In this document: positions 4,178 through 33,000 of the stretch, one piece after another
Layout: every line of letters begins with the position of its first letter
Position numbering within the stretch: position 1 is the first letter of the stretch
Source of the DNA: Octopus vulgaris
Lineage: Eukaryota
DNA: 64,000 nt
NCBI GenBank assembly: GCA_951406725.2
Contig: OX597829.1
Span: 34,348,001 to 34,412,000, forward strand
Direction: 5' to 3'
The notes under the pieces: model-generated
Seen by the model: only the letters and a program-made list of their open reading frames with translations
What the model was told of the DNA's origin: nothing
Database searches by the model: none
Program-made: the position numbers and the translations under genes

Positions 4178-4603
4178 ATTAATTCAGGAATTGGTGCTAT
4201 GATTAACAAAACTATTGGTGGGTCTGGTGGAAATATTCCCGTACCTCCTGCACCTCCCTTACCTGGTGGTCCTTCAGTCCCTCCTCCACCTCCACTACCC
4301 AACATGGGTGCAAATGTTCCACCTCCACCACCATTACCTGGTGGTGCTCCAAGAGCTCCTCCCTTACCTGGCAGCATACCCAGAGCACCACCTCCACCTG
4401 GTGCGCCCAGAGCACCACCTCCACCTGGTGCGCCCAGAGCACCACCTCCACCTGGTGCGCCAAGAGCACCACTTCCACCTGGAGCGCCCAGAGCACCACT
4501 TCCTCCTGGCCTTCCTGGACTAGGTGTGAAGAATGAAAAAACATTACCAAGGCGGAAGAAATACAATGTTGATGTGAAGATAAAAAGAATCAACTGGACA
4601 CAA
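4178..4603 (+). CDS. dia: Diaphanous formin exon, FH1 polyproline domain and start of FH2
   Basis: tttcag|ATT...CAA|gtatgc, 142 codons. Poly-Pro tracts followed by [20 protein letters not shown] (FH2 lasso Trp). Confidence 0.95.
4379..4510 (+). repeat. Coding 27-bp tandem repeat, about 5 units (PRAPPPPGA)
   Basis: cccagagcaccacctccacctggtgcg three times identical, then two variant units. Confidence 0.95.
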
Positions 4604-8032: not shown

Positions 8033-8147
8033 GTAAATGTGAGAAACTTTCATGAAAACTCATTTTGGGCACAAATCAATGAAGAGAAATTTGCTAATGA
8101 CAGACTTATAGATGAAATCAGAAACAGATTCAGTGTAAAAGCCCAGG
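8033..8147 (+). CDS. dia: Diaphanous formin exon, FH2 lasso/linker
   Basis: tttatag|GTA...CAG G|gttagt. VNVRNFHENSFWAQINEEKFANDRLIDEIRNRFSVKAQ carries the second lasso Trp. Confidence 0.9.
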
Positions 8148-9034
8148 GTTAGTTACTTCACTTGTTTCTACACAGTCTTTATTCAACATGTATTTTTTTA
8201 TGGAGTTATGTTGATTCTTTTCAGCTATTTTAGTGAAGGGTTGTGTCTTGTTACCTTTTCATGTAGCTACAAAGGGATTTCTCACTTTTAATGTATAGTA
8301 AGGTGCTCTATTGTGTCTTAAAGTATTTTCTTCTTAATATAGTTAACCAAGTTAGGGGTTTCAGAAAATAGAGGATACCTACCAATTGTACTTTCTTTAT
8401 GAATATATTTTATTCATTTCTTTCTTTGGTATGCAACAAAACTTTTGTAAGGAAAATGTCTGGTTGATTATATAATTTTACTTGTGCCTATCTAAGACAC
8501 CTTACAGGGATATAAGGTAAATTTATTCCCAACATGATTTGGATTGCAAACAGAAGTTTGTAATTAAGTACTTTAAGCTATTAAGATTGTTACATTTCTA
8601 TTTCCACCAACATATACAAATATATTGTCAAAAGAATATATATTTATTAATTCCAAATTATTTTATAGAATGTTAATTAGAAACCCTAGAATTTATTGTA
8701 AATCTGTGTAAATTGTTTCAACTGTCCTCATTTTTATTACACACTTTCAAATTACTCCTTTTTTTAAAGCAAGGAAATGAGTAATTGTTTGAAGCTTTAT
8801 TTTTGAAAGTACTTTAAGAAATTACACGTGAACAGTTATTAACCTTTGAGTTCTGCTCTGGTTATGAAAATGTTGAATGAATAAATAAGAGTATATTCTA
8901 ATAATTATAGAGTACTAAAATTGATCAGGAATGTAAAGACTGAACAGTGATACTTGGAAGAAATTCAAGTTCAATTTGTATAATAAAAGTTAGTGTTTGA
9001 TAATTGATTCTGGCAGTCAGGGTATTGATTTCAC

Positions 9035-9240
9035 ATTTTGGCACAAGGCTTGTAATTTTGGGGGAGGGTTAAGTTAATTAAATCAACCCCAGTGTTCAAT
9101 TGGTATTTCATTTAATCGATCCTGAAACGATGAAATGCAAAGTCAACCTTAGCAGAATTTGAACTTAGAACGTGGAGACAGATGAAATGTTGTTAAACAT
9201 TTTACCTGGTGTGCTAACGATTCTGCCAGCTCACTGTCTT
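9035..9240 (-). mobile_element. tRNA-derived SINE (OR1-like), diverged copy
   Basis: Similar to 33740-33956: atcgatcctgaaacgatgaaatgcaaagtcaacc...gaatttgaact...ttctgccagctc. Confidence 0.7.
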
Positions 9241-9514
9241 ATATCAGTCATAATATTAAAAATAATTTGTTGTTGCTTACCTCAGGGTCAGCCCTAATTA
9301 AGCAGATCTATAATCAAAAATATTCCAGCTGTGACCATTTTATTCTTTATTCTTATTAGGTGAAAGACCACCATCTGGGCAATTTTCTACTAGTTGCTAA
9401 ATATTTACACGATTCCCAATTTGTGTAATTTTTCTGGTGTTACATCTATTTTTTTTTTTTGTGTGACCTTTATTCATTTAATAGTACTCACTCGCTCAGT
9501 AGATAAATTTAGGA

Positions 9515-10346
9515 CATAATTACAGAAATATGCCCCACCTCCCAACTTCGTTTTCTCACAAGTTTCTGAAAAAATGGGTGTTTTTTTATGAAATTTTCTA
9601 CAAATCCTTTCAGCTGGTGTAGATTGCAATTATATCAGAATTTAATATGGTAAAAAAATTGTGAGGGATGGTAGATATTTCACATATCTTAACTTTGTTT
9701 CTTTATATGTTTGGATTAATTATGTAGATTAGAATTATATTGGAAAAAAAATTACTCTTGAAACTCATAAGATCCCTGCTAGCTAACTAAATGACTACAT
9801 AGAAGATGGGCTATCATGAAGTTTGTTTAAAAGAGTGATTGAGATTGTGCTAAAATAATGAAAGAAATATGTATTCAGTACTTAGTGTTAGCATTGTACT
9901 CACCCTTCTACAAAGATTTCTTTCAGAGAATTTACAAGGAAGAGAGGAATAGTTCTCAAAAGTAACTTTTTTTTCAACATAATTCAAATCTACATCATCA
10001 AAACATATGAAGAAACAAAGTTAAGATGCACAAAATATCATCCCCCTCTTGAATTTGTTTTTACATTGAATTCCAACAATAATCATTTCTACAACATCTG
10101 AAAAGTATTTGTAGAAAATTCCATTTAAAGAAAGTTATAAGGAAACAAAATTCAAACATGTGAATTATCTAAATCTCCTCTTTTCCCCTCCTCAAAAACA
10201 TTTTTTCCTACAAATTCTTATATTTTTTTACTACAAATTATTACATCTGAAACATATTTGCAGAAAATTACATTAAAAGATATTTGTTTTTCAGAAAGTT
10301 ATGAGGAAATGAAGTTAGGTTGGGGGACACACATCTATAGTTATGT
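9515..10346. mobile_element. Non-autonomous DNA transposon with imperfect ~55-bp terminal inverted repeats
   Basis: acataattacagaaatatgccccacctcccaacttcgttttctcacaagtttctgaaaa versus tttcagaaagttatgaggaaatgaagttaggttgggggacacacatctatagttatgt. Confidence 0.5.
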
Positions 10347-12344
10347 TGAGTATACACAGAGACATTAAAAAATACTACTTCAAAGCAAAATCGTTATGTT
10401 ACAGTGAATAAAAACTTGTTTTGTGATTGAATCATGAAATTGAAATCTTCAAGATTTGGACCACATTTTGATTAAAAATGTATTAAAATTGGAATTTTCT
10501 AGACAATGTAGACTTTAATAGTTGCTTCCTTTTAGTAAGAGTTACTTACTCCAAACTAACTAATAAGCAGCTTTCTCCATTATAGTATAGATGTAGTATA
10601 TCCAGGACTACATGCTCTATCCACAAATAGTGTGTAACAATGGAGATTGACTGCAATTTGTAGCAGGTTGAGTGACCATATAGTAGTTTAATCATTGCCT
10701 TATTAAATGATTTTAATTTCATGGTATCTTTAAATTGCAATATCACACACTCCTTTCTCTTAAAGCCTAGATCATTTCTTCCATTTAACTTTTGTTCAGA
10801 TCTGATTGTTTTTTCACGGGTAACACATTCAGCTCCTTCAATTAATTTTTAGATGTTTGTGATGATACTCTGTTAGGAATATATGAAAGACAATTTTGTT
10901 TGTGTGTGTGTTTGAACATACTAGAAGATAAGCTGCTTGGAAAATTCATTTGTGAATATGTTTGTGTTAGAATTTCATGAACAAATATTTCATGTGTACT
11001 TTTTATTTCTTTTTTACTAGAATCTTGTCCAATGGGAACAGGTGCTACAATTTTTTTCTTTTATATGAATATTTTAATAAGTAGTTTATCACACTGAATT
11101 TAATCCTTGTTAAGAGATGACAAGCTTGTTTCTGTGTTCATTTTTTTTTTTTTTTGTATTCTCTCCTTGTTAAAATCCGTTTTTGTTCACTAAGCCCTAT
11201 CCTTTTCTCACCCCATTTTCTTCCTGTTGTTCTTAGTATCTTTCTCACTCACTCTCTCTCATATAAAACTTGGAACACAAAACACTAAATTTGTATAACA
11301 GCATAAAAGTGAACAATCACTGAAGAAATGAGGCAGTTTTATCAAGATTTTTTTAGATAAACAAAGAGCAAAATTACAGTAACTTAATGAAAACAACGAT
11401 AAGGGAAAATAATGCACCAACATCAATTTTTAAACTATCTTAAAATACAATGCACATATTTACAAATTTATTAATTTAAAAACTTTACTGTGTCTGACTC
11501 AAAAATTATCAAAAATAAAATAAGTTGGCGTTCAAACAAGATATGAATACTTCAAAAAATTAGATTTTATATTTCTAGAAATGATTTAAGACCAAAGGAT
11601 AATTTGTCCAAAATATGATTGCCATCAATTTGTATTATATATGCATATATTTGGAGTGGCATGTGCATGCATACATGCATGCTTTTCTAAATATTATTAA
11701 ATCCTTTACTGTTTTGAAGGTATCTGTAGAAGAGATACTCCTGCTCACAGTTTACATCTGTGCTTTTTCTATATTAGAATGGATGGAATGGGTTTTATTG
11801 ACATGGTTGCTTTTACAGTTATAGATTTTATTCAAATATAACATAGCAATGGTATCTGTCAATTAAATGAACAAGGAATCTGATGCAAGTAGAGTAATGT
11901 GTCTGTGGACTTTTGCCCATAGACACAATGCAACAGCTGTAATAATACTAAAGTTTTAATTCATTACCATATGATATAGCTCCAATGGATGTCCATGTTA
12001 TTAATACATTATTCTTTGATTTTATTTTTACAATAATTTCAATATGCACAAAAATATTCTTTTTACTGTTACTTGTATATTACACATATTCTCCTGCACT
12101 CACACATATGTAACACATTTGCTCCTATTGACACGTAGACTCACATATTTTGATAGAAAACAAGCTGTAGCAACCAACTTGACCATTTTGCTACCCTCAA
12201 AAACAACTTCTTTGGTCACAAAATAACACTTTTTATTGCACCTTCATATGTATACATACTCTCAAGATACCCTTGCACTTTCATTTAAGTCCATGCATAT
12301 TATTGAACATTGTGTATATATGCTTAAATATGCATGTAGGTATA

Positions 12345-13915
12345 CAAGGTGGTATCAAAAAATTCCCGGACTAATTATGTAGCACACTAACAGGTGATAA
12401 CACACAGTTGTGTGCACAGTGAGGGCTAGCAGTGACCTTCATGAAGCAGTGTGCTGAGTGACATCACTGTATTTACTTTGCAAGTTGTAAAATTTGAGTT
12501 TTTGTGATCACATGTATGCTGTAGTCTGACATTTTGCATATATAAGAAATTGGAACAAAGAACCAACATGGAATTTTATGTTAATCCTGAGAAGTCTGCT
12601 ACAGAGACAGTGAGCATGCTTCGGCAAGCTTACACCAACGAGACAATGGGTTGTACTCATTGTTTTGAATGGCATGGGTACTTCAAAAATGGAAGAATGT
12701 CCATGGAAGATATGCCATGAGTGTCTTCCCCTGCAGAAGTGGAGAAAATTCATTGGCTTGTGCATGGGGATTGTTGGAGGACAATCAACATTGCTGATGT
12801 TGTTGATTTGTTGTATGGGTTCATGCAGGCAATCCTAATGGCTGAATTGACCATGCCAAGTTTGTCAATGTCTGTGGCATTGTGCATTGTGAATTCATCC
12901 CCTTGGACCTGAGAGTTCTACTGTAATGTTTTGAAGCATTTGAAGGAAAACATTTGGCAAAAGTGATCAGATCTGTGGAGTGCAAAGAATTGGATTCTTC
13001 TCAACAACAATGCATTCTATCACTGAGCTCTCCCGACTTGTGAGTTTCTCACCAGATACAACATGGTATCGCTTCCGTACCTGTCCTACTTGTCAGATTT
13101 AGCACCTATGGATTCCGTCTCTTCCTCAAGATGAAAATGCAGCTGAAAGGTTGCAGAAATTCATCAACTCACTTACGAAAAGCAACTTTTGGGCTGGATT
13201 CCAAAATTGGCAAGGATGCCGAGGCCAGTGTATTGCTGTGCAAGGTGATTATTTCAAAAGAGATGATGTTAAAATTTAACTAAATAAGTTATTTTTTATT
13301 AAACATAACTAGTCCAAGAATGTCAACTTGCTTATGGAAAATGACTTCCAGGCCAGTTTCCAAAAGTGGCAGGAATGCTGGGACTGTTGTATTGCTGTGC
13401 AAGATGAATATTTTGAAGGAGGTGAAGTTAAAACTTTGGTAAATAAGCAGAATTAGGAAAGTTGAAATATGTTCATCACACATTTCAACTGCTAAAAGGC
13501 AAATATACAGCAGATAGCATGGAGAAAAAAAATCTCTCTTATGGTAAAAAGGTGTAAAAACACCCAGTCCGTTCAGTATCCCCTTCTATTAGTAATCTCA
13601 GACATCAGTGTTTCAAGCTTATTGGCTATTTTTGATGAGATGTACCTAAGAGAGGCAACTCTAAACGGACTTATAAAGCTACAGCTTTATGCATAGTTCA
13701 ATCAATGTTGACTGATTTGCACTAGTTGATCGCCTGATTAAAGGAAAATAACGAATTATTAGTGCTATGCAGGGTTTATGTATAATTAGAATTAGGTAAC
13801 TTACCTAATTCTGCTCATACATAAACACTGATTAGCACTAATAATTCATTATTTTGGTAAATAAGTTATTTTTTATTAAACATAATTAGTCTGTGAACTT
13901 TTTGATACCACCTCA
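12345..13915 (+). mobile_element. Decayed mariner transposon with duplicated 3' end and nested insertion
   Basis: TA-flanked TIRs caaggtggtatcaaaaaattcccggactaattatgt / acataattagtctgtgaactttttgataccacctca. Transposase remnants: EQRTNMEF..KSATETVSMLRQAY..CFEWHGYFKNG, WILLNNNA, YLSDLAP. Confidence 0.85.
13448..13852 (-). mobile_element. Penelope-like non-autonomous insertion inside the mariner
   Basis: Flanked by direct repeat tttggtaaataag (13435-13447 / 13853-13865). Terminal fold-back at about 13747-13852. Degenerate hammerhead-like motif at 13596-13640 on the minus strand. Confidence 0.5.
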
Positions 13916-16092
13916 TATTTATTCAAATAAACACACACATTCTTTAGTTTTTGTAAATTTATCTTTTATATAATTTACTTAAAATTATCAATAAGATATC
14001 TAATTTTATCATTTCCTTTGAAGCCTATGTTCAATATTATATTAATATTAATATTAAGTTGCTTTAAATTTGTAACACTATGCTAGCTGAAATGAATATA
14101 ATTCTAACTTAAAACGAAGTAGAAAATTATCACAAGAGTTTTAATTCTGTATTTTACTATAAATAGAAGGGAAAATTTTTAGGCAATAGGTCCAAAAGTT
14201 AGATATATGCATGTGTTCTAATTCATTGTTCATCTTAAAATGATATTAATTATATTTTGTTGTGCCTAGGGAGAGTTATTAACACATGAACTCACATAAA
14301 GAATCTTGCTAACCAGATAAAAATATGAAATATTCATGATTCTTATAAAGAAATATTTCTGCCAGTCGACTTATTCTATATTGCTACCTTACAAAAATGT
14401 TGTCGATATTTCACTGCTATGTATTATTTATTTATAATATGATATATTAACACAGACATTAATTTGTAAATTGGCAGAATTATTTGAGCATCAGACAAAA
14501 TGCCTTACAGACTTCATTCTTTACATTCTGAGTTCAAATCTCACTGAGGACAACATTCTCTCCAGAGTCAACAAAGTGCTGGATGCCTCTTAAATCTACT
14601 AATGTTATTTATGCCTTCTCAATCTTTTTTATGCAAGAGTCTATAATTGGCTAAGAATACCAAACAAATCATCATCTTAGTGTGATTTGCAATATAAATG
14701 TAATGAAACCCCAACAGTTACAATATTCTTGTGAGGAGCAGTGCCACCAGATATTAATAACTTTGAAAGAAATTATGAGCAATGTCGCTAAATCCTATAA
14801 AAGAAAATGTGAAACATTTGTCAATGTCTATGACAAAAGTTAAGAAAAGAAGGCACCACTTTCTGGAACTATCTTAAGATAGTAGGATATACACTTGAGG
14901 TGCTATGAGTGGATGACACTGGTACACATGTGTAAACAATCATGAATGAAAAATTGTATTAATACCATCAAAACTAGTACAACACTCAGTTGATTACTTT
15001 GAAATTCTGATGAAGCATAAAAAAAGATTGCATTAAATGTAAATTAGTTTCATTTGAATCTTCAATAGCATATTCTTGTTTGCTTTTCCTTACTTGTCTT
15101 TACTTAACTTTTTTTTAACCCTCCCAGGCTTTTACTGCTTTTGAATTCTAAATTTCTCAAATCCTTGTTTAGTTCCCAATGTTGGTTTGCTAATATAACG
15201 ATGCTCTTTATATTTTGTAATTGTTGTTTCTTTTCTTCTACATCTGTCTCACCCCCTTTTAAATATAGTGATAATTCGAATTCTATTTCAGTTTATAGAT
15301 TCAGATAACTCAAAATGTGAAAGTACAATATGAATAACATTTTTTACATGATATATATGATCTATAGTATCATATCAAAACTAGAAGCACAGAGCAGTTG
15401 TGATAATCACAATGCACTCATTTAGTTTTTACTAAACTGCAGTAGGCTATGTTCTTTCATTACCCACAATTCACCATCATGAAACAGTATGGATGTAACC
15501 CACACATGTAAAATGCATCTTTTATGAATCCTTATAAAAATAGTAACTGACCATTTCTAAATTCCATATAATTTTTAAGGACTGTTGTGATATTTTTGGT
15601 TGCTAAGCAGGAATAAAATTTAACAACGTATCTTAAATATTATTGTCACAAAATCTTCCTGCTTTGATTGTAAATTAGATAAACTTCTTAGTAAGTGCTC
15701 CAATTAATCTACCATTACCAGTTTCCTTGAATTGCTTGAAACCAGACATGTGTGTATGTGTCTTTTGGTATGTATGTGTGTGTGTGTGCATTAATGTGTA
15801 TGTATATACATATTGGGGAAAATTAAGCTGAACATCGAAATTCATATTTAGTCCATATGTATGTTTCACCATTTGGAACTCAGTGTTAGATGTACATTTG
15901 TTTGCTTAACTAAAATTGATCATCAAGAGCACAATTTATTGCATTCTCTTATAGAGATTGACTATTAAAATTTTGGGACTACAGGCATTCTGGGATACGG
16001 CCTTGAAAGGCTTTTGCCGAACAAATCCCCCTAAGCAGTGTTGTAGGACAAACATAAAGATACACGCATGTGCATGCAGACACACACACATA

Positions 16093-18839
16093 AGGCAACT
16101 CTGCAAGCCAGATTGATTTCATCCTCACCAGTCAGCAGGATACAAGGTTGCTCTTAAATACAAAGACCCTCCCTGGTGAAGAATGTACCCCTCAGCATAG
16201 ACTAGTCATTAGTGACTTTAGACTCAAGGCCAGAAGGATGCCAATCCAGAAAAGATGGATTTGGAAGCTAAAGAACCCTTCACATGGTCAGAGATTTAGG
16301 GACATCATCATTGAGAAATTTGATGAGAGGGAGGAGGAGTTACAGACTTGGGACATAGAGGGTAACTGGAAATTCCTACAGGACAGCTTAATGAGTGCTG
16401 CAGACCAAATCTGCGGCTGGTGCAAAGTCTCTTCCAGACCTAGAGTAATGTGATGGTGGAATAATACAGTAGACAAGGCCATTAGATTAAAGAAACAGGC
16501 CTGGAAAGCCTGGAAGAGTGGGGGTAGCAGGGAGCTGTACCAGATAGCCAGAAAGGAAGCTGGGAGACAGGTATACATAGCCAAGGGAGAAGCAGAAAAG
16601 AAGTGAGGACCAAAAAACTGAAGTATTTTGGATTGCAAGACAGTGTGTGAGAGAAAATTGTGATGTCACAGGAGAGAAATGTGCCCGCATGGATAATGGT
16701 GCACTTGCTTTTAATGATTCTGCAAAGAAAGAGGCTTGGAAAAGCCATTATGAAAGACTGCCGAATGTGGAGAATGAATGGGAAGAGGAGAGCCTGCCAA
16801 ATGTTGACCGAGTTGAGGGACCAGCTACCCGAATCGATAGCACCCTGGTAGATAAAGCAATTAAGGATATGAAGTCAGGAAAAGCTCCCAGCCCATCAGG
16901 AATCACTGCTGAGATGCTTAAAATATCTGGTGGTATGAGTTATGGTCTAGTCACCCGTATTGTAAACCAGGTAGTTCACGAAGGAGTCATACCCAATGAT
17001 TAGTATAGCAGCACCATAGTCAGTTGCTTCAAAGATAAAGGTGATGCTTTAGATAGAAATAACTACAGGGGTACAGGGGTATCAAACTGCTGGATCAGGT
17101 GATGAAGGTCAAGGAGATGGTCATAGCCCAACTAATTAGGGAGAGAGTCAGTCTAGATGAGATGCAGTTTGATTTTGTGCCTGGTAGATGCACCACTGAG
17201 GCTATATTCCTGGTAAGACAACTGCAGGAGAAATACCTAGCCAAAGATAAACTCCTATACTTGGCTTTTGTTGACTTATCTGGTGGGTGATGTGGAAACT
17301 AGGGCTAGACAAGTGGTTAATAAGAGCTGTACAGGGATGCTGTCAGTAAGGTATGGGTCAGCAATGAGTATAGTGAAGAATTCCGGGTAGAAGTAGGGGT
17401 TCACCTAGGATCAGCCCTGAGCCCCTCTTATTCATCATAGTCCTCTAGGCAATAACAGGAATTCAAGACAGGCTGCCCCTGGGAGTTCCTCTATGCTGAT
17501 GTCTTGCTCTCATAGCAAAATCACTACTTGAACTAGAGAAGAAATTTCAGGTGTGGAAGCAAGGTTTAGAATTGAAGGACCTTAGCATCAGTGTTGCAAA
17601 AACCAAAGTCCTAGTAAGTAAGAAGGTGAACAAATCACAAAACCTTCAGGTAGATGGCCCTGCTTGATCTGTAGAAAAGGTGTTGGTAGAAACTCCATAA
17701 AATGTAGCCAGTATAAGCTCTGGATGCATAAAAGGTGCAGCAACATCAAAGGATGGTTAACCAGGATGATATCTTTTGTGTGTGGCAGATGCACAGGGGC
17801 TATAAACACCGAAGATGCTCAGTGACAAAGGGCCTCTCACTCAAAGTGAAAGGTAGACTGTATGATGCATGTGTGAACAGCCATGCTACATGGCAGTAAA
17901 ACATGAGCCATGACTGCTGAAGACATGGATAGGCTTGAAAGAAATGAAGCTAGCATGATCCACTAGATGTGTAATGTCAGTGTGCACACACAACACAGTG
18001 TCCTGAGAAAAATGTTGGACACAAGAAGCATTGGATATCGTGTACAAGAGTGAGAACTGTGCTGATATGGTCATGTGCTGTGTATGGATGAGGAGAGCTT
18101 TGTGAAGAAGTGTCACTCCCTAACATTGGAAGGAACCCATGGAAGAGGGAGACCCAAGAAGACACGGGATGAGATGGTGAAGCATGACCTTCGAATGTTG
18201 GGCCTCACAGAGGTAATGACATGAGACCGAGACCTCTGGAGATATGCTGTGATTGAGAAGACCCTGCAAGTAAAGTGTGATCACAGCTGTAGCCTATACC
18301 AGTGTTGCATAACCAGCCTATTTAAAAAGTATGTTTGAATCATTTGGCAACATGCCGTGCTTGAGGAGACCTATTGAGTCAACTAAAATCAAAGATCAAA
18401 ATCACAATCAAGAATGGAAATTGTAGTTGTGGTCAATGCCAGTGCTGCCTGACTGGCTCTCATGCTGGTGGCACACAAGCACCATTCATGCATGTGTTGT
18501 TGCCAGTCTCGCCTAACTGGCTCCCCATGCTGGTGGCACTCAAAAAGCACCATCTGAATTTGGTCGATGCCAGCCCCTCCCACTTCCCCCATACCGGTAG
18601 CATGTAAAAAGCAGCATCGGAACATGACTGATGTCAGTGTCGCCTGACTGGCTCCCGTGCCGGTGGCACATAAGAAGTACCCACTACACTCTCGGAATGG
18701 TTGGCATTAGGAAGGGCATCCAGCTGTAGAAACATTGCCAGATCAGATTGGAGCCAGTTGTGACCTGGCTTGTCAGTCCCCAGTCAAACTGTCCAACCCA
18801 TGCCAGCATGGAAAACGGATGTTAAACAATGATGATGAT
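16093..18839 (+). mobile_element. RTE-clade LINE, 5'-truncated and decayed
   Basis: APE end (ECTPQHRLVISDF), RT motifs (GKAPSPSGITAEMLK, QFDFVPGRCTTEAIFLVRQLQEKY, LAFVDL, LYAD), GRGRPKKT, ~65-bp internal repeats in the 3' UTR, (GAT)n tail. Confidence 0.92.
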
Positions 18840-18844
18840 ATGGG

Positions 18845-19830
18845 AAATGAAAGATGGATGATGGAATATACGAGAATTTATTTTTAATTACAACAATTGT
18901 TTCAACACATCTAGCATCGATTCCTCATGGGTGGGACACACAACAACAGGTTGAGGAGCATCCGGTGGTGCAGATGTATCTTGTCAGGTGATAAATAAAT
19001 ACAACTCATTAAAATTACTGTTCTGCAGTGTAACTTTCCGTTTTGTAGAAAGAAAAGCAGCCAGACAGAGGAAATATCTTCATTTATATAGAAGATCAAA
19101 AATAAAATCACGAATGGCAAAAAGAGAAATGAACACGCAATACAGCGAGAAAATTATAAATAATTACCGTTTACAGATATGGATGTATAAATGCCCTCGA
19201 GCAAGCTGCAAAATGTGAGTATACGCACACATGAGGTTTGGTGCACTCATGATCACAAAACGAGTTAGCTATCTACTTCGTGTTTATAAGAATGGGGAGG
19301 TTATAAGTAAACTTAAGTCATCCATACTTTAAAGTAAATTAAATTAAGTTAATGGTTACTCAAAATTCATTCTCACTGCATTGTGTGAACGTACATTTAT
19401 ATGCGTATAGGCATCTCGAGAGTTGTTCAGAAATTCTATTAATGATTTTCTTGTTAGTCCACAGAATAGACAGGGATTCCTCAGAGCAGAGACGGTATTA
19501 CTATGGACCAATTAATGCTGTACTTCATTTTGCCCTCATTTCAGTCACGATACAAAATCTGCCAAAGATGTTGAATGTCTCTTATTGATTGTCTTAAAGC
19601 TGGCAACATAGTTATGATAATAATTCTTAAATGAATCAGCCATCTGCCCAATGTAAACATATGGGCCTCCCCTTGTGTGCACGGTACATTTATATACAAG
19701 GTTTGTATTCATACAGGGATTCATCAAAGGACATTTTGATTTTTCTCTGCATGAGCATTGATCATATTTATTTGCATATAAGGCAGTCCAGACTCCATTT
19801 ATCAGCATTGTTACTGTGTTAGCTGTATCA
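18845..19830 (-). mobile_element. Penelope-like element 3' part (GIY-YIG fragment plus pLTR with hammerhead motif)
   Basis: ORF 19545-19808: CSCREKSKCPLMNPCMNTNLVYKCTV...YIGQ...FKNYYHNY..SF...STSLADFV. Its non-coding end recurs at 22850-23520 and 32230-33000. Confidence 0.8.
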
Positions 19831-19852
19831 TAAGTATATATATATATTTGAT

Positions 19853-20010
19853 GGGATTCTTTCAGTTTCTGTCTACCAAATACACTCAGAAGGCTTTAGT
19901 CAACTCTAAGCTATAATAGAAAACACTTGCCTAAAGTGACAATCAGTGGGACTGAACCCAAAACTACATGGTTGGGAAGCAAGCTTCTTACCACACAGTC
20001 ACAGTTGCAT
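19853..20010 (-). mobile_element. tRNA-derived SINE head (OR2-like)
   Basis: Reverse complement of the first ~160 nt of 38217-38610. Confidence 0.75.
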
Positions 20011-20429
20011 CTATGCATATATAATATATATTTTATTTCGGTTGAGTCAATTTCTTGCTACTCTGAGTTTCACTTGTACAGGATCTTCAGGCAGGCTATG
20101 ACAGGAAGTTTGCACATCTCTATGTAGTTTATTGTGATAGGGTATGATGATGGAGAAAATCTATGATAAAAGAAGAAAAAGAGGAAAGAAAATATAAAGG
20201 AAAAGAAAGAAGGAATGATTAAGAAAATAATATGTAATCCTGACAACATTTGAAATGAATAACAGCAGTTAAACAGATTGAAAGGTAGTAATATGGTAAA
20301 CAAAATATAGAAGAATACAAAAAATATTTAAGGAATAAATAAAAAACAGTAAGAGGTATCAGCAGAAAGTTCAAAATTGCTAAGAAATATGAAAGATGAA
20401 AAGAAATCACCGCAACATGGACGCTGATT

Positions 20430-21025
20430 TTGGAGGAATGGTCAGTAGTTCATAAAGTAACAATTGAAACTATAGTCATCCAGTACTGTTTGCAGAGGGA
20501 TAGTCAATAGTTCAAGAATTCAAAAGGTACAATTAAAGGGGTAGCCATATGGTACTACCTTTGGAGGGGTGACCAATAGTTCAGAAACTGAAAATTGAAG
20601 TGATAGTGGAGGGGTACTGTTTGTAGAGGGGTGTGTAGTCGTTCAAAATGTAACTGTTGAAGTGGTAGTCATGCAGTACAGTTTATAGAGGAGTGGTCAA
20701 TAGTTCAAAAAGTAACTAAGTGATAATCACGGGCTATTGTTTTCTTGAAATGATTCAAAACATCAAAAGCTTGACAATTGAAGTGATACTCACAGGGTAC
20801 TCTGTTAATGGATGTGGTGAATTCTTCAAGCAGTAACAATAGGAGAGGATACTTTTTTTTTTTTTGGAATGGTGGTCAGTTGTTCAAAAAGTGATAATTG
20901 AAGTGATAGTCATGGGGTACAGTTTTTGCATGAATGCTCAATATTTCAAGCATTAACTGAAGAAAAAATCATAGGGTAATGTTGGTTAGAGTGGTAGTGA
21001 AAACTTCAAAACCTAACAATTGATG
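20430..21025. repeat. Diverged ~60-bp minisatellite, about 10 units
   Basis: Approximate unit GGAGGGGTGGTCAATAGTTCAAAAAGTAACAATTGAAGTGATAGTCATGGGGTACTGTTT. Confidence 0.8.
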
Positions 21026-21034
21026 ACACTTTAT

Positions 21035-21077
<43 letters not shown>

Positions 21078-21139
21078 TATGTGTGTGTGTGTGTGTGTGT
21101 GCAAATTTTTCCCTTGTTAACAATTAACACAGAAAATTA

Positions 21140-22205
21140 TTAATTATTCCATATGGAAGGCAAATTAAATCTAATCTTCCTTTGCAGTTTCGTGAAGCTA
21201 ATATTAGGAATTTTTCAGAGAATTCTAGGTATTACTATATTATCAACTCACACATGGTTAGGATTGGTTTTTCCAACACAAAAAATCTCTTACAAATTAT
21301 CTCTTCACATAATATCAACCTATTAAATATTGATACATTTACTAATACTAACATTAATTTAGCTAATACCATCCATCCCTCTAGAAATATTGATAACAAG
21401 GTTATTGTATCTGAAGTCAATTACAACAGAATCAAGTTAATGTCAAGTAACTCTAAAATTAAAAATTCTATATACCAGTGTAAAATTACTACTCGTAATG
21501 AAGTATATTTTTATATAGGAAGCACATCTTCTCACTTATCTAAAAAAATTTCTAATCATTACTCTACATTTAGAGATAGAAATAAATGTAACAGTACAGG
21601 GCTTAGTAAATTAATTTGGGATCTAAAAGACCACAATAAACAATTTAATTTAGATTGGTTGATTCTCTCAATCTTGATACCTTATGACAAAGGCAAGGAA
21701 TTCTGTCTTCTCTGTAATTCTGAACTATTTTTAATTCTTTTTTCTAAAAATCCCCTTGTTATAGAGTGTGCATACTAATGTAAACATTGGCAGAAACACA
21801 TTTAGTTCATATATAATTTAAACATTAATTTTCTTCTTACATTTCACATTCACTAGATATATATTTTTCCTTGTCTATATGGTTTTATTTAATATACATA
21901 TAGTCATGTGCTTCTTATTTATTTAGTTTTTCTTTCCTTTATCCCTCCTCTTTCTATAGGCTGCCTCTGATGTTATATCCTATAACGTTTTTTTGAAACA
22001 ATCTTAATAGCGTTCAGTTAATCACTATACATATCCATAATTTTCTGTTAAAATGTCTTATTGACAAGTTTCATTTCTTCCCTTCCCTGAAGAGAAGATT
22101 ACATTGTTTTACACCATTTTATTCCTTTGGAATAATACCAGTGATATCTTCGAAACGTGTCAGAAGAAAAAGAATTTGAATAACACCTGCGTTTAACTCC
22201 TTTTA
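21140..22205 (+). mobile_element. Penelope-like element 3' part (GIY-YIG ORF 21182-21778 plus pLTR hammerhead)
   Basis: NSIYQCKI...YIGSTS..LSKKISNHYSTF...STGLSKLIWDLK...CLLCNSE, followed by a hammerhead motif at 22082-22166. Confidence 0.85.
22082..22166 (+). ncRNA. Type-I hammerhead ribozyme motif
   Basis: cttcc-CTGAAGA(22087-93)-GAAGAT...ATCTTC-GAAAC(22152-56)-GT-GTC-agaag. Core intact; stem I has a mismatch next to the cleavage site. Confidence 0.65.
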
Positions 22206-22453
22206 TATGTAGGTATATATATATAGAGAGAGATAATGCTGTCATTGAGACCCAAAGGTGTCAGGTAATGCTGAATAAGTGCTATAGACAGACTATAGTT
22301 AAGTTCTAGATTCGGTAATATTGTGAATAAAGGGTTCAACGTTGGTTCTATGTCAGCGTGTGTATATAAGAATTTTTTGCGTAATTAGATAAAAAACCCA
22401 AACTATTTGTATCACATCGAAACTAACTATGACTTAATTTTTCCTCTCACACC

Positions 22454-22505
22454 GTCTCCGATGAAGGGATATTATTAATTAATATCCTAGAAACAGCTGT
22501 AAGAC
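22454..22505 (+). ncRNA. Type-I hammerhead motif, U4C variant core
   Basis: gtct-CCGATGA-agggatatt..aatatccta-GAAAC-AGCT-GTA-agac. A second copy lies on the minus strand at 24278-24327. Confidence 0.6.
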
Positions 22506-22695
22506 CTATCTATAAATGCTCTAATATGTATACAGCCTTGGTTTTTTATCTTATTACACAAAAAATTCAACGTAAACACGAAGTTTCTACCTTTATAAAC
22601 AAGGAGTTACAACACCTTTACTTGTGAGATTTTTGCTGCCCTGGTAACTATTTATTTATTTTCCGTGTTAATTGTTAACAAGGTAAAATACACTC

Positions 22696-22764
<69 letters not shown>

Positions 22765-22770
<6 letters not shown>

Positions 22771-23520
22771 GTAAATGATATATGAAAGACAAGATGGAAT
22801 ATATGAGAATTTATTATTGATCATGACAATTGTTTTGACACATCAAGTCTAATGAGATCATTCCTTAATGAGAAGATCATTAATAGAATTTCTGAATGTA
22901 CTTTCACACAATGCAGTGGGAATGAATTTTAAGTAACTGTTAACATAATTTACTTTAAGGTATGGATGAATTAGGTTCAGTTTTAACCTCCCCATTCTTA
23001 TAAACACCAAGTAGCTATTTAACTCACTTTGTAATCATGAGTGCATGAATCCACACGTGCGCATATGCTTATATTTTCACAGATGCTTGTAAGAGAGAGT
23101 GTACATGTACCATGCAGCTTGCACAGGAGTGTTTCTACATCCATATTTTTTAATGGTTATTTTTAGTACTTTTCTCGCTGTATTGCATGTTCATTTCTTT
23201 TTTGCAGCTGTGATTTTATTTTTGATCTTCTATTTCCTTTGTTATGCTGCTTTTCTTTCTATGAAATGAGAAGATACATTGCGGAACTGTTATTTTAACA
23301 AGTTGTCTTTTTATCACTCAATAAGACACATCTGCACTGTCGGATGCTCCTGAAACAGCTGTTAAGTCTCCATGAGGGATCGATGCTAGATCTGTTGAAA
23401 CAATTGTCGTGATTAATAATAAATTCTTATATATTCCATCTTCTGTCTTTCATTTACCATATATATAACAATCACTGTGAAAGTGACCCTGCTTTACCAG
23501 TAAGCTACCAGCTATAAACC
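22765..23520 (+). mobile_element. Penelope-like pLTR fragment with inverted 5' partial repeat
   Basis: 22765-22844 is the reverse complement of about 23389-23468. The body matches 18845-19460 (-) and 32290-33000 (+). Confidence 0.7.
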
Positions 23521-23607
23521 ATTCGTTTTATTATCCAATATATACATGTGTGTGTATGTATGTACATATATGTCTCCCTATATACACACACATTATCTAT
23601 CTATTTA

Positions 23608-23656
<49 letters not shown>

Positions 23657-23659
<3 letters not shown>

Positions 23660-24071
23660 CAAAATAAGTAACAAGGATATCCAGAGGTAATGCAGTATGA
23701 CCATTTCATGCGACTCCATTTAATTGAACTATGTAAACATTATATCAATTTAAAATGTAGAGCAATCTTCAGCTGCATAAAAATATAGATTTTGTTAAAT
23801 TCGAAGGACTCATTTGTATAATTTTTTATCCAAAATCACCAAGAGGATCGGTAAAACATGTTATTTGTCTATCTTGTTATACTCTTGGTGATTTTGGATA
23901 AAAAATTATACAAATGAGTCCTTTGAATTTAACTAAATTCTATATTTTTATGCAGCTGAAGATTGCTCTACATTTTAAATTGATGTAATGTTTGCATTGT
24001 TCAATTACATGGAGTCGCATGAAACAATCGTACTGCATTACCTCTGGATATCCTTGTTGCTTATTTTGATT
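23657..24071. repeat. Fold-back element with ~190-bp arms, each carrying a hammerhead motif
   Basis: Arms 23657-23845 and 23882-24071 are near reverse complements with a 36-nt spacer. Confidence 0.9.
23950..24038 (+). ncRNA. Type-I hammerhead ribozyme motif with long helix II
   Basis: ATGCAG-CTGAAGA(23956-62)-long hairpin-GAAAC(24021-25)-AATC-GTA-CTGCAT. Helix I is a perfect 6 bp. Confidence 0.7.
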
Positions 24072-24170
24072 GTAATCACCTTATTTTAAATTATATGGAT
24101 AATACCATACTAAAATCTGGTGCCTTCAACTTAAGTACCATATTCATCTGAATCTAAATTTTACTGAACT

Positions 24171-24217
<47 letters not shown>

Positions 24218-25110
24218 TAACAGAATGAAATAAAAATCCAAGGCTGTGAAAGATTTCAGAACATTTATAAATAGAAGGTCTTACAGTTGTTTCTGAGATA
24301 TTGTATATATCCCTTCATCGGAAACGGTGCGAGAAAATGGATAAGCAATAGTTATTCTAGAGAAGATATGAAATAGAGAATGAAGTGGAGGAATGAAAAT
24401 AGACGTTAGATATGCAGGCATATTGTATCTGCAGTTCCATTATTTAAGCAGAATGGTATACATATAAGATTCCTGTGCCTTGTGTGTAAGTTCCAATAGT
24501 ATTTAAAATTGGTCATTCCAAGCATAGAGTTTGTACACAGTGTTATTGGATTGAGGTTTTTTTTTGAAGTGACTTAAAAGTTGGAAATGTGTTTGTAAAG
24601 TCAAATAAAAAAAACGGGAAGAGAGGGAAAAAAAAGAGAGAGAAAAAGAAAAGTGGGGATCAACCAAAAATTTTAAGCAACGATATGCCGTTTACCTCCA
24701 TTCTTTTAGATACAATAAACATAGTAAATCTACAACACTTGCCACCCACATACATCATCTCAATAATACAAATATACCCTATACTTTATCATGGTCCATA
24801 CTTGATTCAGGGCTTCCCTACCGAGGTCAGCGTTCAACCTGCAAGCTTTGCCTGAAGGAGGTGCTTCACATATTAGAGCACAACTCTCCAACACTGCTAA
24901 ATAAACATAATATGGCACTAAGCACATGCAACGACCGTTTTTTTCACACAATCAAATTCTACCACAAATCCAGATGCCTAAACGACCAAACAGTGCATTT
25001 CCATAATACCCCTTAGGTAATCCCAATAATCTTAAAAATCTACATTTTAACTCCTAATCCTTATCTAATTCCACTTTCATACTTGGATATCACAATTATT
25101 TAATTATATT

Positions 25111-25165
<55 letters not shown>

Positions 25166-25589
25166 GTATGTATGTATGCATTATTACTATTATTATTGTT
25201 TACAAACGATACACACTGCTTCAGGCAAACTAGAATATTCTCTTAGTATTTAAGTAACACTGAAGTTTTGAGAATCTGTTAACATTTCTGAAGGCAGAAA
25301 AATGTGTCTCAACTTGGCCTAATTTTGAGCATTGTTGACTTTAACCTCAAAAGTCACATAGCCTCCTGACAGTATAATGTGTGTGTGTGTGGAGAGAGAG
25401 AGCAGAGAGCTATTTTCATCCTTTAAATGTTGCTTCAGTAAAGCAAACTGATTTGCATAATGTTTTACTAGCTGCTAGTTCAATCAATTATGCGTTATTG
25501 GATTAAGCAGCATATATAGATAATTTTAAATGTGTATTTAAAGTTAAAAATCTTTTAAGTGATGCTGCATAACTTTTGCAAAATATGGA

Positions 25590-25950
25590 TATGTGTGGTA
25601 AGAAGTTTGCTTCCCAACCACATGGTCCCAGGTTTGGTCCCACAGCATGGCACCTTGGGCTAATGTATTCTACGATAGCCTCAGGCCAACCAATTCTTTA
25701 TGAATGGATTTGGTAGATGGAAACTGAATGAAGCCCTTCATATATATGTATGTGTGTGTCTTTGCATCCATGTTTACCCTTTTCCACTGCTTAGCAACAG
25801 GTGTTTATATATCCATAACATAACAGTTCACCAAAACTGACCAATAGAATAAGTACCAGGCTTAACAATATTAGTAAGTACTGGGGGTCACTTCATTTGA
25901 CTAAAATTCTTCAAGGTTGTATCACAGTGTGGCCACAGTCTAATGACTGA
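25590..25950 (+). mobile_element. tRNA-derived SINE (OR2-like)
   Basis: Colinear with 38217-38610. Confidence 0.8.
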
Positions 25951-26587
25951 AACAAGTAAAAGACGAAAAAAATATACTTGTTATCGCTTCCATGGACAGA
26001 AAAATAAGGATTGATTAATCCTGGTTTTGATTTTTGTTTGGTTCTCTTTTGAAGTCATACTTCCCCTCCCCCACCACATGTACCCATGGGGCGATATAAA
26101 GCTTATAGATATTTATAGTTCTTAATTGTAGTGGCTTCAATGAATTAATTTGACTTGTATAAATAATGGTTTGCTGAAGGCTAGATCAATTAGCAAATCT
26201 TTAAGTTTACTTTCATCTTAGCCGTTTCAGTTTCTTAAACATCATTCATTTCTATGATTGCCAGGGCGGTAAATTCTTATTGTCTCTACTTCATTAAATC
26301 ACATTTTTATTGTTTCTTAAGCAGCAATACCATTTGTATTTAAATAACATGTGTTCAAGATCATATTATTACAAATTTAAGCATTGTTTTATAAAATGAT
26401 ATGGGTTAAATGACAATGCTGTTTCTAAATATGCACTTTCAGAGACACTTACTCTTAAATTACCCTTTTAGTTTACAGTGAAATTTTCATTATCATCATC
26501 ATTTTCTAAAATGTCATTACCTTGTTCTATATGTAACTACTTTTTTTCAACACACTAATTTCTATCTAAACGTTTCTGAAATTGCAG

Positions 26588-26668
26588 AGAAAGCAGCTGT
26601 TAAAGAAAAACCAATGAAGAAAACAAAAGAATTAAAAGTTTTGGATTTAAAATCAGCACAAAATTTAT
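26588..26668 (+). CDS. dia: Diaphanous formin exon, FH2
   Basis: ttgcag|AG...TTA T|gtaaga. EKAAVKEKPMKKTKELKVLDLKSAQNL matches KELKVLDSKTAQNL of DIAPH proteins. Confidence 0.92.
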
Positions 26669-27813: not shown

Positions 27814-28130
27814 TATTGTATAAAGGACCATGGGTAAGGCCAGAACAATGTGAAGTAAATGCAAGGTAAATCACAAAAAAGCAAATATGTGAATTAATGT
27901 AGACTTACCTTGTGTTCAATATTTCGGGGTTATGACCCCATTTTCAAGAGATTGAGATTGTCACCGAAGTGCACACTGGCAACAATTGTCAATTTTTTGA
28001 AAATGCGCTCATAACTCTGAAATATTGAATACAAGGTAAGTCTGCATTAATTCATATATTTGTTTTCTTGTGATTTACCTTGCGTTTACTTCACATTGTT
28101 CTGGCCTTACCCACCATCCTTTATACAATA
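27814..28130. repeat. Fold-back element with ~140-bp arms
   Basis: tattgtataaagga..ggtaaggccagaacaatgtgaagtaaa... versus ...tttacttcacattgttctggccttacc..tcctttatacaata. Confidence 0.88.
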
Positions 28131-30877: not shown

Positions 30878-31189
30878 GTGAGTGATTATATTTCCACTAA
30901 TTAGTTTTAATGAACAACTATAATTACAAATACCCTCAACCCTCTCAGATCTGGGCCTCTGCATCTAACCTTACCTTTCACCTGGTCTCCTGAACAAAAC
31001 AATAGTTGCACATCTAGCTCAAGAGTAATAGTTACTGGCAAAGTAATGGACAGAATAAAAAAAACAATTGAGGAGAATAACAATAATAGGCCTTTTTCTC
31101 AACCGCTGTATTTGTTAGGCAAACTAATGAACAGAATTGCAAAAGAATTCAAAATAGGTCTATCTCTCAACTAGTCATTTCTTAATATA

Positions 31190-31367
31190 TATATATTAAT
31201 TTATCCTTAAAACCACTATTGGCTAGGGCATTGTTGTAATAGGGGGCTGCCTTCTCAAAAATTCCTTTAAAGGAAAAGAGGTTAGAAACTCTGTTGATAA
31301 CGTTAGCTATCAGGTTTTTGAATACTACAATAGAGTGACAAGACTGTTTATATATAACCCCTCTAAT

Positions 31368-31398
<31 letters not shown>

Positions 31399-33000
31399 GA
31401 CCTAGGAAAATAATTTAGTCCCCCCCTCTTTCCCTTAATATAAAAGCTAACATAGGTAAAAAGATTCCTGTCTCTCCTAGACCAATGTTTTTCAGAAAAT
31501 CACAGGTAGAGCAAAATGTTTAACAGGTGCTCAGTGAAATTATCATATAGCTGCTGCCCCAATATGAAAAGCATCATTACATGAGAACAACACTAAGAGC
31601 TCACCCCCAGTTGTAACTGTCAAGACCCAGAAACCTGTCCACTCAACCAGGGATGTATGATTAATTCCTTCATATATGAGGCAGCAGTTACAGCCACACT
31701 AGATGATAAAACAACTGATAAGAAGAGCTATATCAGACTATGTGAAGGCAAATTCAAAAACTGCTATGCTAATCAAAGGATTGGGACAATTTATTGTGTT
31801 ATGAATAGTAGAATTATTGTGTAGTTTATTGCCTTGACCAATTCTTCTTGGCCTGTATTCTCGATCTGAGTCATTTTGCTTACCATAATGTTGTGTTTGT
31901 GTGCAATGTGTATTATTATTGGAGGAATTGGCAGAGTTATGTATGCTTGTGTCATGTATGTATCAAATTTTCTCACAATATCCAGCCCAAGCTAAAACAC
32001 TATTATAATATGGCGCATGTGATTCCAAAATTTTTTTATTAGCAGATAATCTAGATATTCTTGTTGAAATATCCTTAACTAATCCCTGTATTATTGAAGG
32101 TGGACGGTTGAAGATAAAATTGTCTTGAGCTAACTGGATCCTATAAAGGAGCTGTTGTGGTAGCAGACCACGAAACACGGTTGTAATTCCTCCTAACTTG
32201 GTCCATAGTAAGGTACACAAAACCATATGATATCATTTCCTGGAGATGCCGTCTCTGCTCTGAGGAAGCCCTGTCTATTCTGTGAACTAATGAGAAGATC
32301 ATTAATAGAATTTCTGAAAGACTCTCAAGATACTTACATGCATATAAATGTACTTTCACTGAATGCAGTGGGAATGAATTTGTGTAACTGCTAATGTAAT
32401 TAATAATCATTATAGACCTTAAGGTATGGATGAATTGAATTTAGCTCTAACCTCCCCATTCCTATAAACTCCAAGTAGCTATTTAATTTGCTATGTGAAC
32501 ATGTGTGCCAAGCCACACATGTGCATATGCTTATGTCTTTGTGGATGTCTGTATGAGCAAGTGTACATGTGCCATACAACCTACATGAGGGCATTTATAT
32601 ATCCATATCTATTAACTGTTATATTTAATTCATTTTTCGCTGTATTGTGTGTTCATTTCTTTGTAGCATCTGTTATTTATCTTCTACACAAATGAAGTTA
32701 TATCCTTTTAATTTGCTGCTTTTCTTTATACGAACTGAGAAGATACATTGCAAAACTGTTATTTCAATAAGTTATATCTATTTATCACACGAAGAAACAC
32801 ATCTACACCATTGGATGCTCCTGAACCAGTTGTTAAGTATTTCACCCATGAGGGATCAATGCTAGGTGGGTCAAAACAATTGTAGTAATTAAGAACAGTT
32901 CTCATATCTTCTGTCTCATTAACCAAATACACAACAAACGCTGTGAAAGTGAACATGCTTTACTAGTGAGCTACCAGGTATAAACCATAGATTCATTATC
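31190..33000. mobile_element. Cluster of Penelope-like fragments on both strands
   Basis: Minus 31205-31340 KNLIANVINRVSNL..IFEKAAPYYNNALANSGF. Plus 31420-31775 NIGK..KLSYSCCPNMKSII..CNCQDPETCPLNQGCMINSFIYEAAV..SYI. Minus 31963-32115 PPSIIQGLVKDISTRISRLSANKKILESHAPYYN. Plus 32230-33000 is a pLTR copy. Confidence 0.75.

What the first reader, a model, noticed from the sequence alone, without database searches (positions are those of the whole stretch)
18885..24330. Dense cluster of type-I hammerhead ribozyme motifs from four unrelated families in one formin intron
Seen: seven motifs of the form helix I - CUGANGA - helix II - GAAA - tiny helix III - NUH - helix I within 5.5 kb, at 18887-18992(-), 22082-22166(+), 22454-22505(+), 23313-23414(+, decayed), 23690-23778(-), 23950-24038(+) and 24278-24327(-). 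Their helix sequences differ between families, yet all keep the core spacing and a palindromic or near-palindromic helix III loop (AATT, AGCT, AATC, GT). Established: Penelope pLTRs and retrozymes carry minimal type-I hammerheads thought to cleave as dimers. Inference: this genome hosts a diverse hammerhead and retrozyme repertoire, and sense-strand copies sit in the dia pre-mRNA where they could cut the 18-kb intron co-transcriptionally.
Basis: partly seen in the sequence, partly recalled or inferred. Interest (0 to 1): 0.72.

Follow-up and report, generated by a model that had tools for sequence, protein, structure and literature searches.

The report
Pile-up of Penelope retroelement hammerhead ends
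This stretch of an animal gene's intron is a pile of six broken jumping-gene ends (likely Hydra-type Penelope elements), each carrying the small self-cutting RNA motif already known from such elements; most copies are damaged, on the wrong strand or predicted to be zipped shut, so they likely do not cut the gene's RNA, but two of the four families carry C instead of the usual U at one core position in most of their copies.

Summary
All seven motifs are at the stated places and far above chance, but only 3 of 7 have the textbook CUGANGA core; 2 have CCGAUGA and 2 are decayed. They are the 3' ends of six truncated Penelope-like element (PLE) insertions from four families, three tied to RT and GIY-YIG remnants with Hydra-clade motifs, one likely; none is a tandem retrozyme. 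The pile-up is real (7 in 5.5 kb; at most 3 in 200 sampled windows) and is best explained by nested insertion at (TA)n ends. The 18,440-nt formin intron is confirmed by a spliced contig. Intron cutting is unlikely: the four sense copies belong to four families with incompatible dimer palindromes, one is dead, one is weakened, and one is predicted locked in a ~200-bp hairpin; clustered A>G changes suggest RNA editing instead. The one unusual point: C4 is the source state in families A (190 C : 61 U genome-wide) and C (71 : 18 of 100), absent from the published PLE tables I read. This scan has noted the same C4 variant and Hydra-type ends before, in this genome and others.

The parts
8148..26587 (+). 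18,440-nt GT..AG intron of a Diaphanous-type formin gene that holds the cluster
   Evidence: contig X11 record 9 joins 8040-8146 to 26587-26668; splice dinucleotides; FH2 hit E 2.4e-14 in a later exon; DAD-like stretch at 40667 (motif recalled)
18838..19846 (-). insertion A1: 5'-truncated family A PLE end with GIY-YIG remnant (19548-19895, CxCX5C linker)
   Evidence: 81% over 1074 nt to L037/L295; translation
18887..18992 (-). family A hammerhead, antisense to the gene, core CUGACAA (G8A), predicted dead
21140..22225 (+). insertion B: 5'-truncated family B PLE end with GIY-YIG remnant (21128-21778), preceded by (TA)n(TG)n
   Evidence: 87-89% over ~1120 nt to L067, L071, L081; translation
22082..22166 (+). 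family B hammerhead, sense; core intact, 2 nt lost from the helix III palindrome, C.A mismatch beside the cut site (after 22161)
22240..22568 (+). insertion C1, likely nested in the end-tail junction of B: inverted 3' end plus tail (about 22240-22400) and forward end (22406-22568); B-type tail resumes at about 22545-22690
   Evidence: blast map; tails read by eye
22454..22505 (+). family C hammerhead, sense; core CCGAUGA (U4C), intact 8-nt palindrome, equal to the family majority; putative cut after 22501; best candidate for activity
22785..23590 (+). insertion A2: inverted half motif (22787-22849, -), main copy 22895-23467 and tail
23313..23414 (+). family A hammerhead, sense; core UCAAUAA (C3U, G5A, G8A), predicted dead; its 3' half pairs with 22811-22836 and shows five A>G changes in one contig
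23654..24210 (.). insertion D: head-to-head pair (arms 92% complementary) plus tail; predicted ~200-bp hairpin of -284 kcal/mol in the pre-mRNA
23690..23778 (-). family D hammerhead, antisense; core intact, helix III altered
23950..24038 (+). family D hammerhead, sense; core intact, palindrome broken, predicted sequestered by the upstream inverted arm; putative cut after 24032
24202..25070 (-). insertion C2: family C end (24202-24650, -) with an inverted GIY-YIG piece (24657-25070, +)
24278..24327 (-). family C hammerhead, antisense; core CCGAUGA, palindrome broken

Best explanation
The cluster is a pile of six truncated Penelope-like retroelement ends, likely of the Hydra clade, that likely inserted one beside or inside another at (TA)n tracts; their hammerheads are predicted to have served the source elements by cutting as same-family dimers and are here likely passive passengers that do not cut the formin pre-mRNA. 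Mechanism in steps: (1) shown: each motif sits about 50-70 nt before the (TA)n end of an element whose longer copies carry RT and C-terminal GIY-YIG remnants (A, B, C; D from one locus). (2) Inferred: target-primed insertion with 5' truncation and inversion gave the short head-to-head stubs, and each new end supplied a fresh TA-rich target. (3) Predicted: the family-specific 8-nt palindrome forms helix III only between two copies of the same family. (4) Predicted: in this intron no sense copy has such a partner, and inverted arms turn two of them into long double-stranded RNA, likely edited by ADAR.
For: Each family has at least 2,465-2,976 first-look candidates in the genome. Upstream GIY-YIG and RT pieces were found for A (L295, L296), B (L298) and C (L299, L300), and an endonuclease upstream of D in L294. 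CxCX5C linker in A and C; CxxC..E..N..CxH in A, B, C, as defined for Hydra in PMC8557442 section 11. By eye, the family B and C RT pieces resemble the printed Hydra-1_Obim protein. (TA)5+ lies within 150 nt of the 3' end in 62 of 113 family loci against 685 of 5000 random windows. An inverted second copy is present in 19 of 113 loci. With no palindrome demanded, 20 of 30 descriptor hits in the sampled 1 Mb had a self-complementary helix III, against 8 of 54 hits in shuffles over all six cores tried. Helix III hetero-duplexes among the four sense copies are -2.2 to 0 kcal/mol, against -6 to -11 for family homodimers. The D sense core is paired to the inverted arm with P about 1, and helix I falls from P 0.28 to 0. 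Five A>G changes lie at 23403-23422 in one contig, all in predicted duplex, where 25-28 of 28 family copies have A. A spliced contig spans the intron. Metazoan PLE hammerheads showed no monomer cleavage and low dimer cleavage (PMC4209133); one needed the element's protein (PMC11167929).
Against: The density is extreme: 7 full motifs in 5.5 kb against a mean of 0.32 and a maximum of 3 in 200 sampled windows (the library favours these four families). Different families do not generally co-cluster: 8 other-family hits in 113 loci against 5.1 expected, P 0.14. The cluster's TA-tract density (7 in 6.4 kb) is about the sampled genome mean (12 per 10 kb). So the nested-target explanation is inferred and not sufficient on its own. 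Copy C1 equals its family majority and could dimerise in trans with other family C transcripts. A spliced product does not exclude cutting, since introns cut by slow hammerheads are still spliced (PMC2995048). The editing signal is one contig of depth 3.3 without DNA of the same animal. Pfam found no RT family in the fragments; B shows no cysteine linker in the copies read.
Confidence: 0.85

Rival explanations
1. One or more sense copies (best: C1 at 22454) really cut the formin pre-mRNA, by dimerising in trans with transcripts of other copies of the same family or with help of a protein, and so tune formin output.
For: C1 has its family's full motif and the strongest palindrome (-11.1 kcal/mol), and the family-majority homodimer folds as a double hammerhead. 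1,812 genomic matches of a 22-nt family C core pattern. Short family C contigs occur in runs guessed to be RNA.
Against: U4C considerably lowers activity in vitro (PMC3088659). C1 also has an A.A pair at the base of helix II. Helix I of C1 has P below 0.01 in local context, and the antisense C2 copy can pair with C1 at -118 kcal/mol once transcribed. Published PLE hammerheads are slow even as dimers. Nothing suggests selection on this locus.
Confidence: 0.08
2. The motifs are non-autonomous retrozymes that spread through circular RNA.
For: Most copies are short (median shared upstream stretch under 300 nt). A 3 x 460-nt tandem holding the D motif exists elsewhere (L113). Animal retrozymes are reported to derive from PLE pLTRs (bioRxiv 10.64898/2026.07.22.740005).
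Against: No tandem units in the cluster. 5' ends of copies vary widely, as expected of truncation, and longer copies run into RT/endonuclease frames. Partial copies show no clear peak at the cut site (7 of 37 D partial hits within 4 nt, range -94 to +15).
Confidence: 0.04
3. The pile-up was retained by selection because its inverted repeats form double-stranded RNA that affects splicing or editing of the formin transcript.
For: Long predicted duplexes (D pair -284, A1+A2 -283, C1+C2 -118 kcal/mol) and ADAR-like changes.
Against: Inverted stubs are a normal by-product of PLE insertion (19 of 113 loci; PMC8557442), and editing of repeat duplexes is expected without function (own knowledge). The cluster is 1.5-13 kb from either splice site.
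Confidence: 0.03

Closest known systems
Hydra-clade PLEs and their hammerheads (Craig et al. 2021, PMC8557442, section 11, Files S1/S2; includes Hydra-1_Obim from Octopus bimaculoides)
   Same: C-terminal GIY-YIG with CxCX5C linker and CxxC/CxH motifs, (TA)n insertion, inverted 5'-truncated copies, 3' type I hammerhead with an 8-9-nt near-palindromic helix III; U.U pair at the base of helix II as in family D.
   Different: All 26 Hydra rows of File S2 have U4, whereas families A and C have C4. Helix II arms of A, B and D (58-77 nt) are much longer than in that table. None of the four motifs is the Hydra-1_Obim motif. Family C is at least 3.4 kb against 'generally under 3 kb'.
[quoted passage not shown]
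   Same: Type I, short helix I, palindromic 15.2-16.2 region, mostly solitary truncated copies or opposite-strand pairs 100-700 bp apart, thousands per genome, dimer design.
   Different: Their consensus is CUGANGAH with G10.1-C11.1. C and D lack that pair, A and B lack the extra nucleotide, and no CCGA core occurs in their supplementary file 2.
Non-LTR retrozymes (Cervera and De la Pena 2020, PMC7229834, search listing only; bioRxiv 10.64898/2026.07.22.740005)
   Same: Type I hammerhead in dispersed animal repeats; related to PLE pLTRs.
   Different: Retrozymes are non-coding tandem repeats; these are single or inverted ends of coding elements.
U4C hammerhead variant of a viroid (cited in Perreault et al. 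2011, PMC3088659)
   Same: Same core change; reported as much slower in vitro yet sufficient in vivo.
   Different: There it is a variant in an RNA pathogen; here it is the source state of whole retroelement families with hundreds to thousands of copies.

Membership tests
PLE-type minimal type I hammerhead | core CUGANGA ... GAAA ... NUH with type I closure | tested here: met
   Met in families B and D (27-29 of 29 copies per core position). A and C fit except C4. 2 of 7 window copies are decayed.
PLE-type minimal type I hammerhead | U at core position 4 | tested here: not met
   Not met in families A and C: A 190 C4: 61 U4: 44 G5A; C 71: 18: 10 (+1 double) of the first 100 of 1,812.
PLE-type minimal type I hammerhead | self-complementary helix III segment for dimer formation | tested here: met
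   Family words are self-complementary, -6 to -11 kcal/mol; dimer folds; intact in 3 of 7 window copies.
PLE-type minimal type I hammerhead | self-cleavage as dimer | not testable with these tools
   Needs a bench assay; only contigs were available, which cannot show RNA ends.
Rfam hammerhead families | covariance-model score at gathering threshold | tested here: not met
   No hammerhead family hit at gathering score or E up to 10.
Penelope-like element | RT followed by C-terminal GIY-YIG endonuclease upstream of the pLTR | tested here: met
   A, B, C: RT pieces and EN in order. Pfam GIY-YIG E 5.6e-4, below cut-off, for C; no Pfam RT hit; Atlas leads PF26215 and RVT_1 11%. D: EN in one locus only (L294).
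Penelope-like element | 5' truncation, inverted copies and tail | tested here: met
Hydra clade of PLEs | CxCX5C linker before GIY-YIG | tested here: met
   A and C met; D has lost the first C in the one copy read; B shows none in the 3 copies read.
Hydra clade of PLEs | CxxC and CxH around the conserved E and N, no CCHH | tested here: met
   By eye in A, B, C; D is cut after CxxC.
Hydra clade of PLEs | insertion into (TA)n | tested here: met
   62 of 113 loci against 685 of 5000 random windows.
Hydra clade of PLEs | RWK and DKT motifs; placement in the RT tree | not tested
   No full-length copy was recovered among the 12 extended loci; no tree was built.
Non-LTR retrozyme | non-coding head-to-tail tandem units each with a hammerhead | tested here: not met
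   No such tandem in 18.8-25.1 kb; families run into coding frames.

The most novel reading that the evidence does not exclude
C4-core hammerheads are a functional, repeatedly evolved variant of Hydra-clade ribozymes that cut only as dimers; because helix III is a family-specific palindrome, thousands of intronic sense copies such as C1 could be switched on in trans by other transcripts of the same family, nicking host pre-mRNAs genome-wide.
Probability: 0.08. Interest if true: 0.75.

Novelty: new variant of a known kind. Interest (0 to 1): 0.28.

Why it matters
The cluster itself is ordinary retroelement debris. What matters is the side result. Whether PLE hammerheads need to cut at all is open (PMC8557442, PMC11167929). 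This genome offers sister families that spread with U4 or with C4 at a nearly invariant core position, all with the same dimer design, so cleavage rate can be compared directly with success in transposition. Descriptors that fix U4 would miss a sizeable share: 7 of 30 stringent hits in the sampled 1 Mb had C4. Canonical-looking U4 copies in these families are likely CpG decay products, a trap for genome scans.

Tried and rejected
Rfam: no hammerhead hit. Pfam: no RT family in 8 fragments, GIY-YIG below cut-off in 1, none in the window's own EN pieces. PDB sequence search: nothing. Homolog search: nothing for the family B RT piece; 2 proteins for the family C piece, one an Octopus bimaculoides protein at 75% with an unrelated automatic name. 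I first read the elements as Neptune-like (recalled) and changed to Hydra after reading PMC8557442 section 11. The first walk upstream for D hit the inverted arm and gave no link; the second gave one locus. Test for copies starting at the cut site: no clear peak (samples small and chosen by other queries). Test for general co-clustering of families: not significant. Family A had 0 profile hits in the sampled 1 Mb, so its copy number rests. No RNA holder was listed on record (RNA is a guess for all runs laid), and contigs cannot show RNA ends. Lunse, Weinberg and Breaker 2017 (RNA Biol 14:1499) was not held under DOI, PMC id or PubMed id; it may already report C4, so the novelty of C4 is provisional. 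A guessed id fetched an unrelated paper. Supplement file 1 of PMC4209133 was not searchable. Literature searches for C4: 'hammerhead'+'U4C' (only PMC3088659), 'hammerhead'+'CCGAUGA' (one unrelated paper), Penelope+hammerhead+CCGA+consensus, octopus or cephalopod with hammerhead. Pair indices for helix II of B, and the frame of the exon translation, were off by one; those numbers are not used.
Full report
Setting. The window is G000:C16:34348001-34412000 of a 2.8-Gb genome, octopus-like by its closest named protein relative. It holds a Diaphanous-type formin on the + strand: a proline-rich FH1 exon at 4157-4600, an FH2 hit at E 2.4e-14 and a DAD-like stretch at 40667 (motif recalled). The cluster lies in one intron, 8148-26587, 18,440 nt, GT..AG. 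A 1,475-nt contig of a run guessed to be RNA joins the two flanking exons.

Observation. In 100 shuffles of the window a strict descriptor gave 0.09 hits and a relaxed one 0.54, against 2 and 7 real. Only 22082+, 23690- and 23950+ have CUGANGA. 22454+ and 24278- have CCGAUGA, 18887- has G8A, and 23313+ has three core changes. A half motif lies at 22787-22849(-). Rfam does not recognise any of them.

What they belong to. Searches of the genome with each motif gave 2,465-2,976 first-look candidates per family (30 loci each fetched). Copies share a fixed 3' end 50-70 nt after the motif, often followed by (TA)n or a short tail, and have variable 5' ends. Walking upstream linked A, B and C to GIY-YIG and RT remnants, and D to an endonuclease in one locus. 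A and C have the CxCX5C linker and A, B, C the CxxC..E..N..CxH pattern. These, with (TA)n insertion, define the Hydra clade in PMC8557442 (passages, section 11 and supplement parts read), which lists an octopus member. By eye the B and C RT pieces resemble the printed Hydra-1_Obim protein; no tree was built. Mapping gives six insertions: A1 18838-19846(-), B 21140-22225(+), C1 likely nested in B's end-tail junction, A2 22785-23590 with an inverted arm, D 23654-24210 head-to-head, and C2 24202-25070 with an inverted endonuclease piece. Five are back to back, mostly separated by TA-rich tracts.

How unusual the density is. I fetched 100 evenly spaced 10-kb stretches. A library of 85 motifs found 60 copies in that 1 Mb, at most 3 in any of 200 windows of 5.5 kb (mean 0.32), against 7 here (the library favours these four families, and the two windows per stretch overlap by 1 kb). 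Scaled up, that is roughly 170,000 motif copies in the genome (extrapolation). So the pile-up is real. Family ends abut (TA)5+ in 62 of 113 loci against 685 of 5000 random windows, and 19 of 113 loci carry an inverted twin, which explains pairs and the target. Against a simple story, other families were not enriched beside family loci (8 seen, 5.1 expected, P 0.14), and TA tracts are no denser here than the sampled mean. Repeated nesting at freshly made ends is my inference.

Dimer design. Without asking for it, 20 of 30 stringent hits in the sampled 1 Mb had a self-complementary helix III segment, against 8 of 54 in shuffles. The four family words differ, yet each is self-complementary (-6.0 to -11.1 kcal/mol). 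The family-majority homodimers of C and D fold with open cores, own helix II and an 8-bp shared helix III; A and B dimers are also favoured by 9-10 kcal/mol but with alternative pairings. This matches PMC4209133 (parts 1-2 of the text and part 2 of supplement file 2 read), where a monomer did not cut and dimers cut weakly; PMC6765202 (passages); and PMC11167929 (passages), where cleavage needed the element's protein and was not needed for insertion in vitro.

Could they cut the intron? Three copies are antisense. The four sense copies come from four families, and their helix III hetero-duplexes are -2.2 to 0 kcal/mol. A2 is dead by sequence. B has lost 2 nt of its palindrome and has a mismatch beside the cut site. 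D2 has a broken palindrome and is predicted to be wholly paired with its upstream inverted twin (-284 kcal/mol; helix I probability 0.28 alone, 0 in context). C1 equals its family majority and is the only candidate. It would need a partner in trans and has C4. One contig of depth 3.3 (run X3) covers 23292-23536 with 6 differences; the five listed are all A>G within 23403-23422, each in the predicted duplex with 22811-22830, where 25-28 of 28 family copies have A. That looks like ADAR editing but lacks matched DNA. A spliced product does not by itself exclude slow cutting (PMC2995048, passages).

The C4 core. In family A the genome holds 190 exact matches with C4-G5, 61 with U4 and 44 with G5A. 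In family C, of the first 100 of 1,812 matches 71 are CCGA, 18 CTGA, 10 CCAA and 1 CTAA (counted by hand). Loss on both letters of the CG pair, at about the rate of other CpG sites (0.25 and 0.20 in A), and no G5A in 58 copies of B and D, show C4 was the source state; the modest excess of U4 over G5A leaves room for a U4 subfamily. A second sample of C chosen by an upstream stretch gave C4 in 19 of 21. In the sampled 1 Mb, CCGANGA gave 11 hits (shuffles 0 in 5 of 5) from four families, while CAGA and CGGA cores gave 0. All 26 Hydra rows of File S2 of PMC8557442 and the 44 rows I read in the supplement of PMC4209133 have U4; both used a descriptor from the 2014 paper. U4C is known from a viroid as slow in vitro but viable (PMC3088659, passages). 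Lunse et al. 2017 could not be read and may bear on this. Of the 2026 retrozyme preprint I read part 1 of 5.

Earlier notes of this scan report the same C4 variant, Hydra-type ends and long helix II arms at other places in this genome and in other genomes. They agree with what I tested but are not independent evidence. One note named the Hydra clade before I checked it.

Verdict. A real but ordinary pile of PLE ends. Retrozymes are not supported and intron cutting is unlikely. The family-wide C4 core is a modest, testable variant. Interest 0.28.

Noticed in passing
window 61476-61529 (-): Canonical-core type I hammerhead motif of a fifth family, with 5-bp helix I and an imperfect palindrome.
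   Followed up: no
window 32759-32916 (+) and 37231-37286: A further decayed family A copy, and a decayed motif of another family whose GAAA box is lost.
   Followed up: partly
window 31185-31824 and 50986-51966: Other PLE-like RT and endonuclease remnants; 31597-31824 has a CxCX5C linker.
   Followed up: partly
window 23403-23422: Five clustered A>G differences in one low-depth contig, all inside a predicted intronic duplex; looks like A-to-I editing.
   Followed up: partly
L113:1014-2398 (G000:C29 near 24.63 Mb): Three 460-nt tandem units, 99% alike, each holding a family D hammerhead; a dimer-competent, retrozyme-like layout.
   Followed up: no
L162, L165, L168, L175 (sampled stretches): Families with the U3-A8 covariant core and perfect palindromes.
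   Followed up: no
L132, L152, L169, L187, L205, L207, L217: An abundant very small C4 family (7 copies in 1 Mb, plus 2 with U4) with a 12-nt helix II arm.
   Followed up: no
window 60368-60433 (+): tRNA-like match at 32.6 bits lacking a full anticodon arm, likely a tRNA-derived repeat.
   Followed up: no
window 27814-28130: Another intronic inverted repeat, arms 142 nt, 89% complementary, 33 nt apart.
   Followed up: no
window 16094-18280 and 43460-44794: Two copies of a LINE-like element in opposite orientation, about 80% alike.
   Followed up: no
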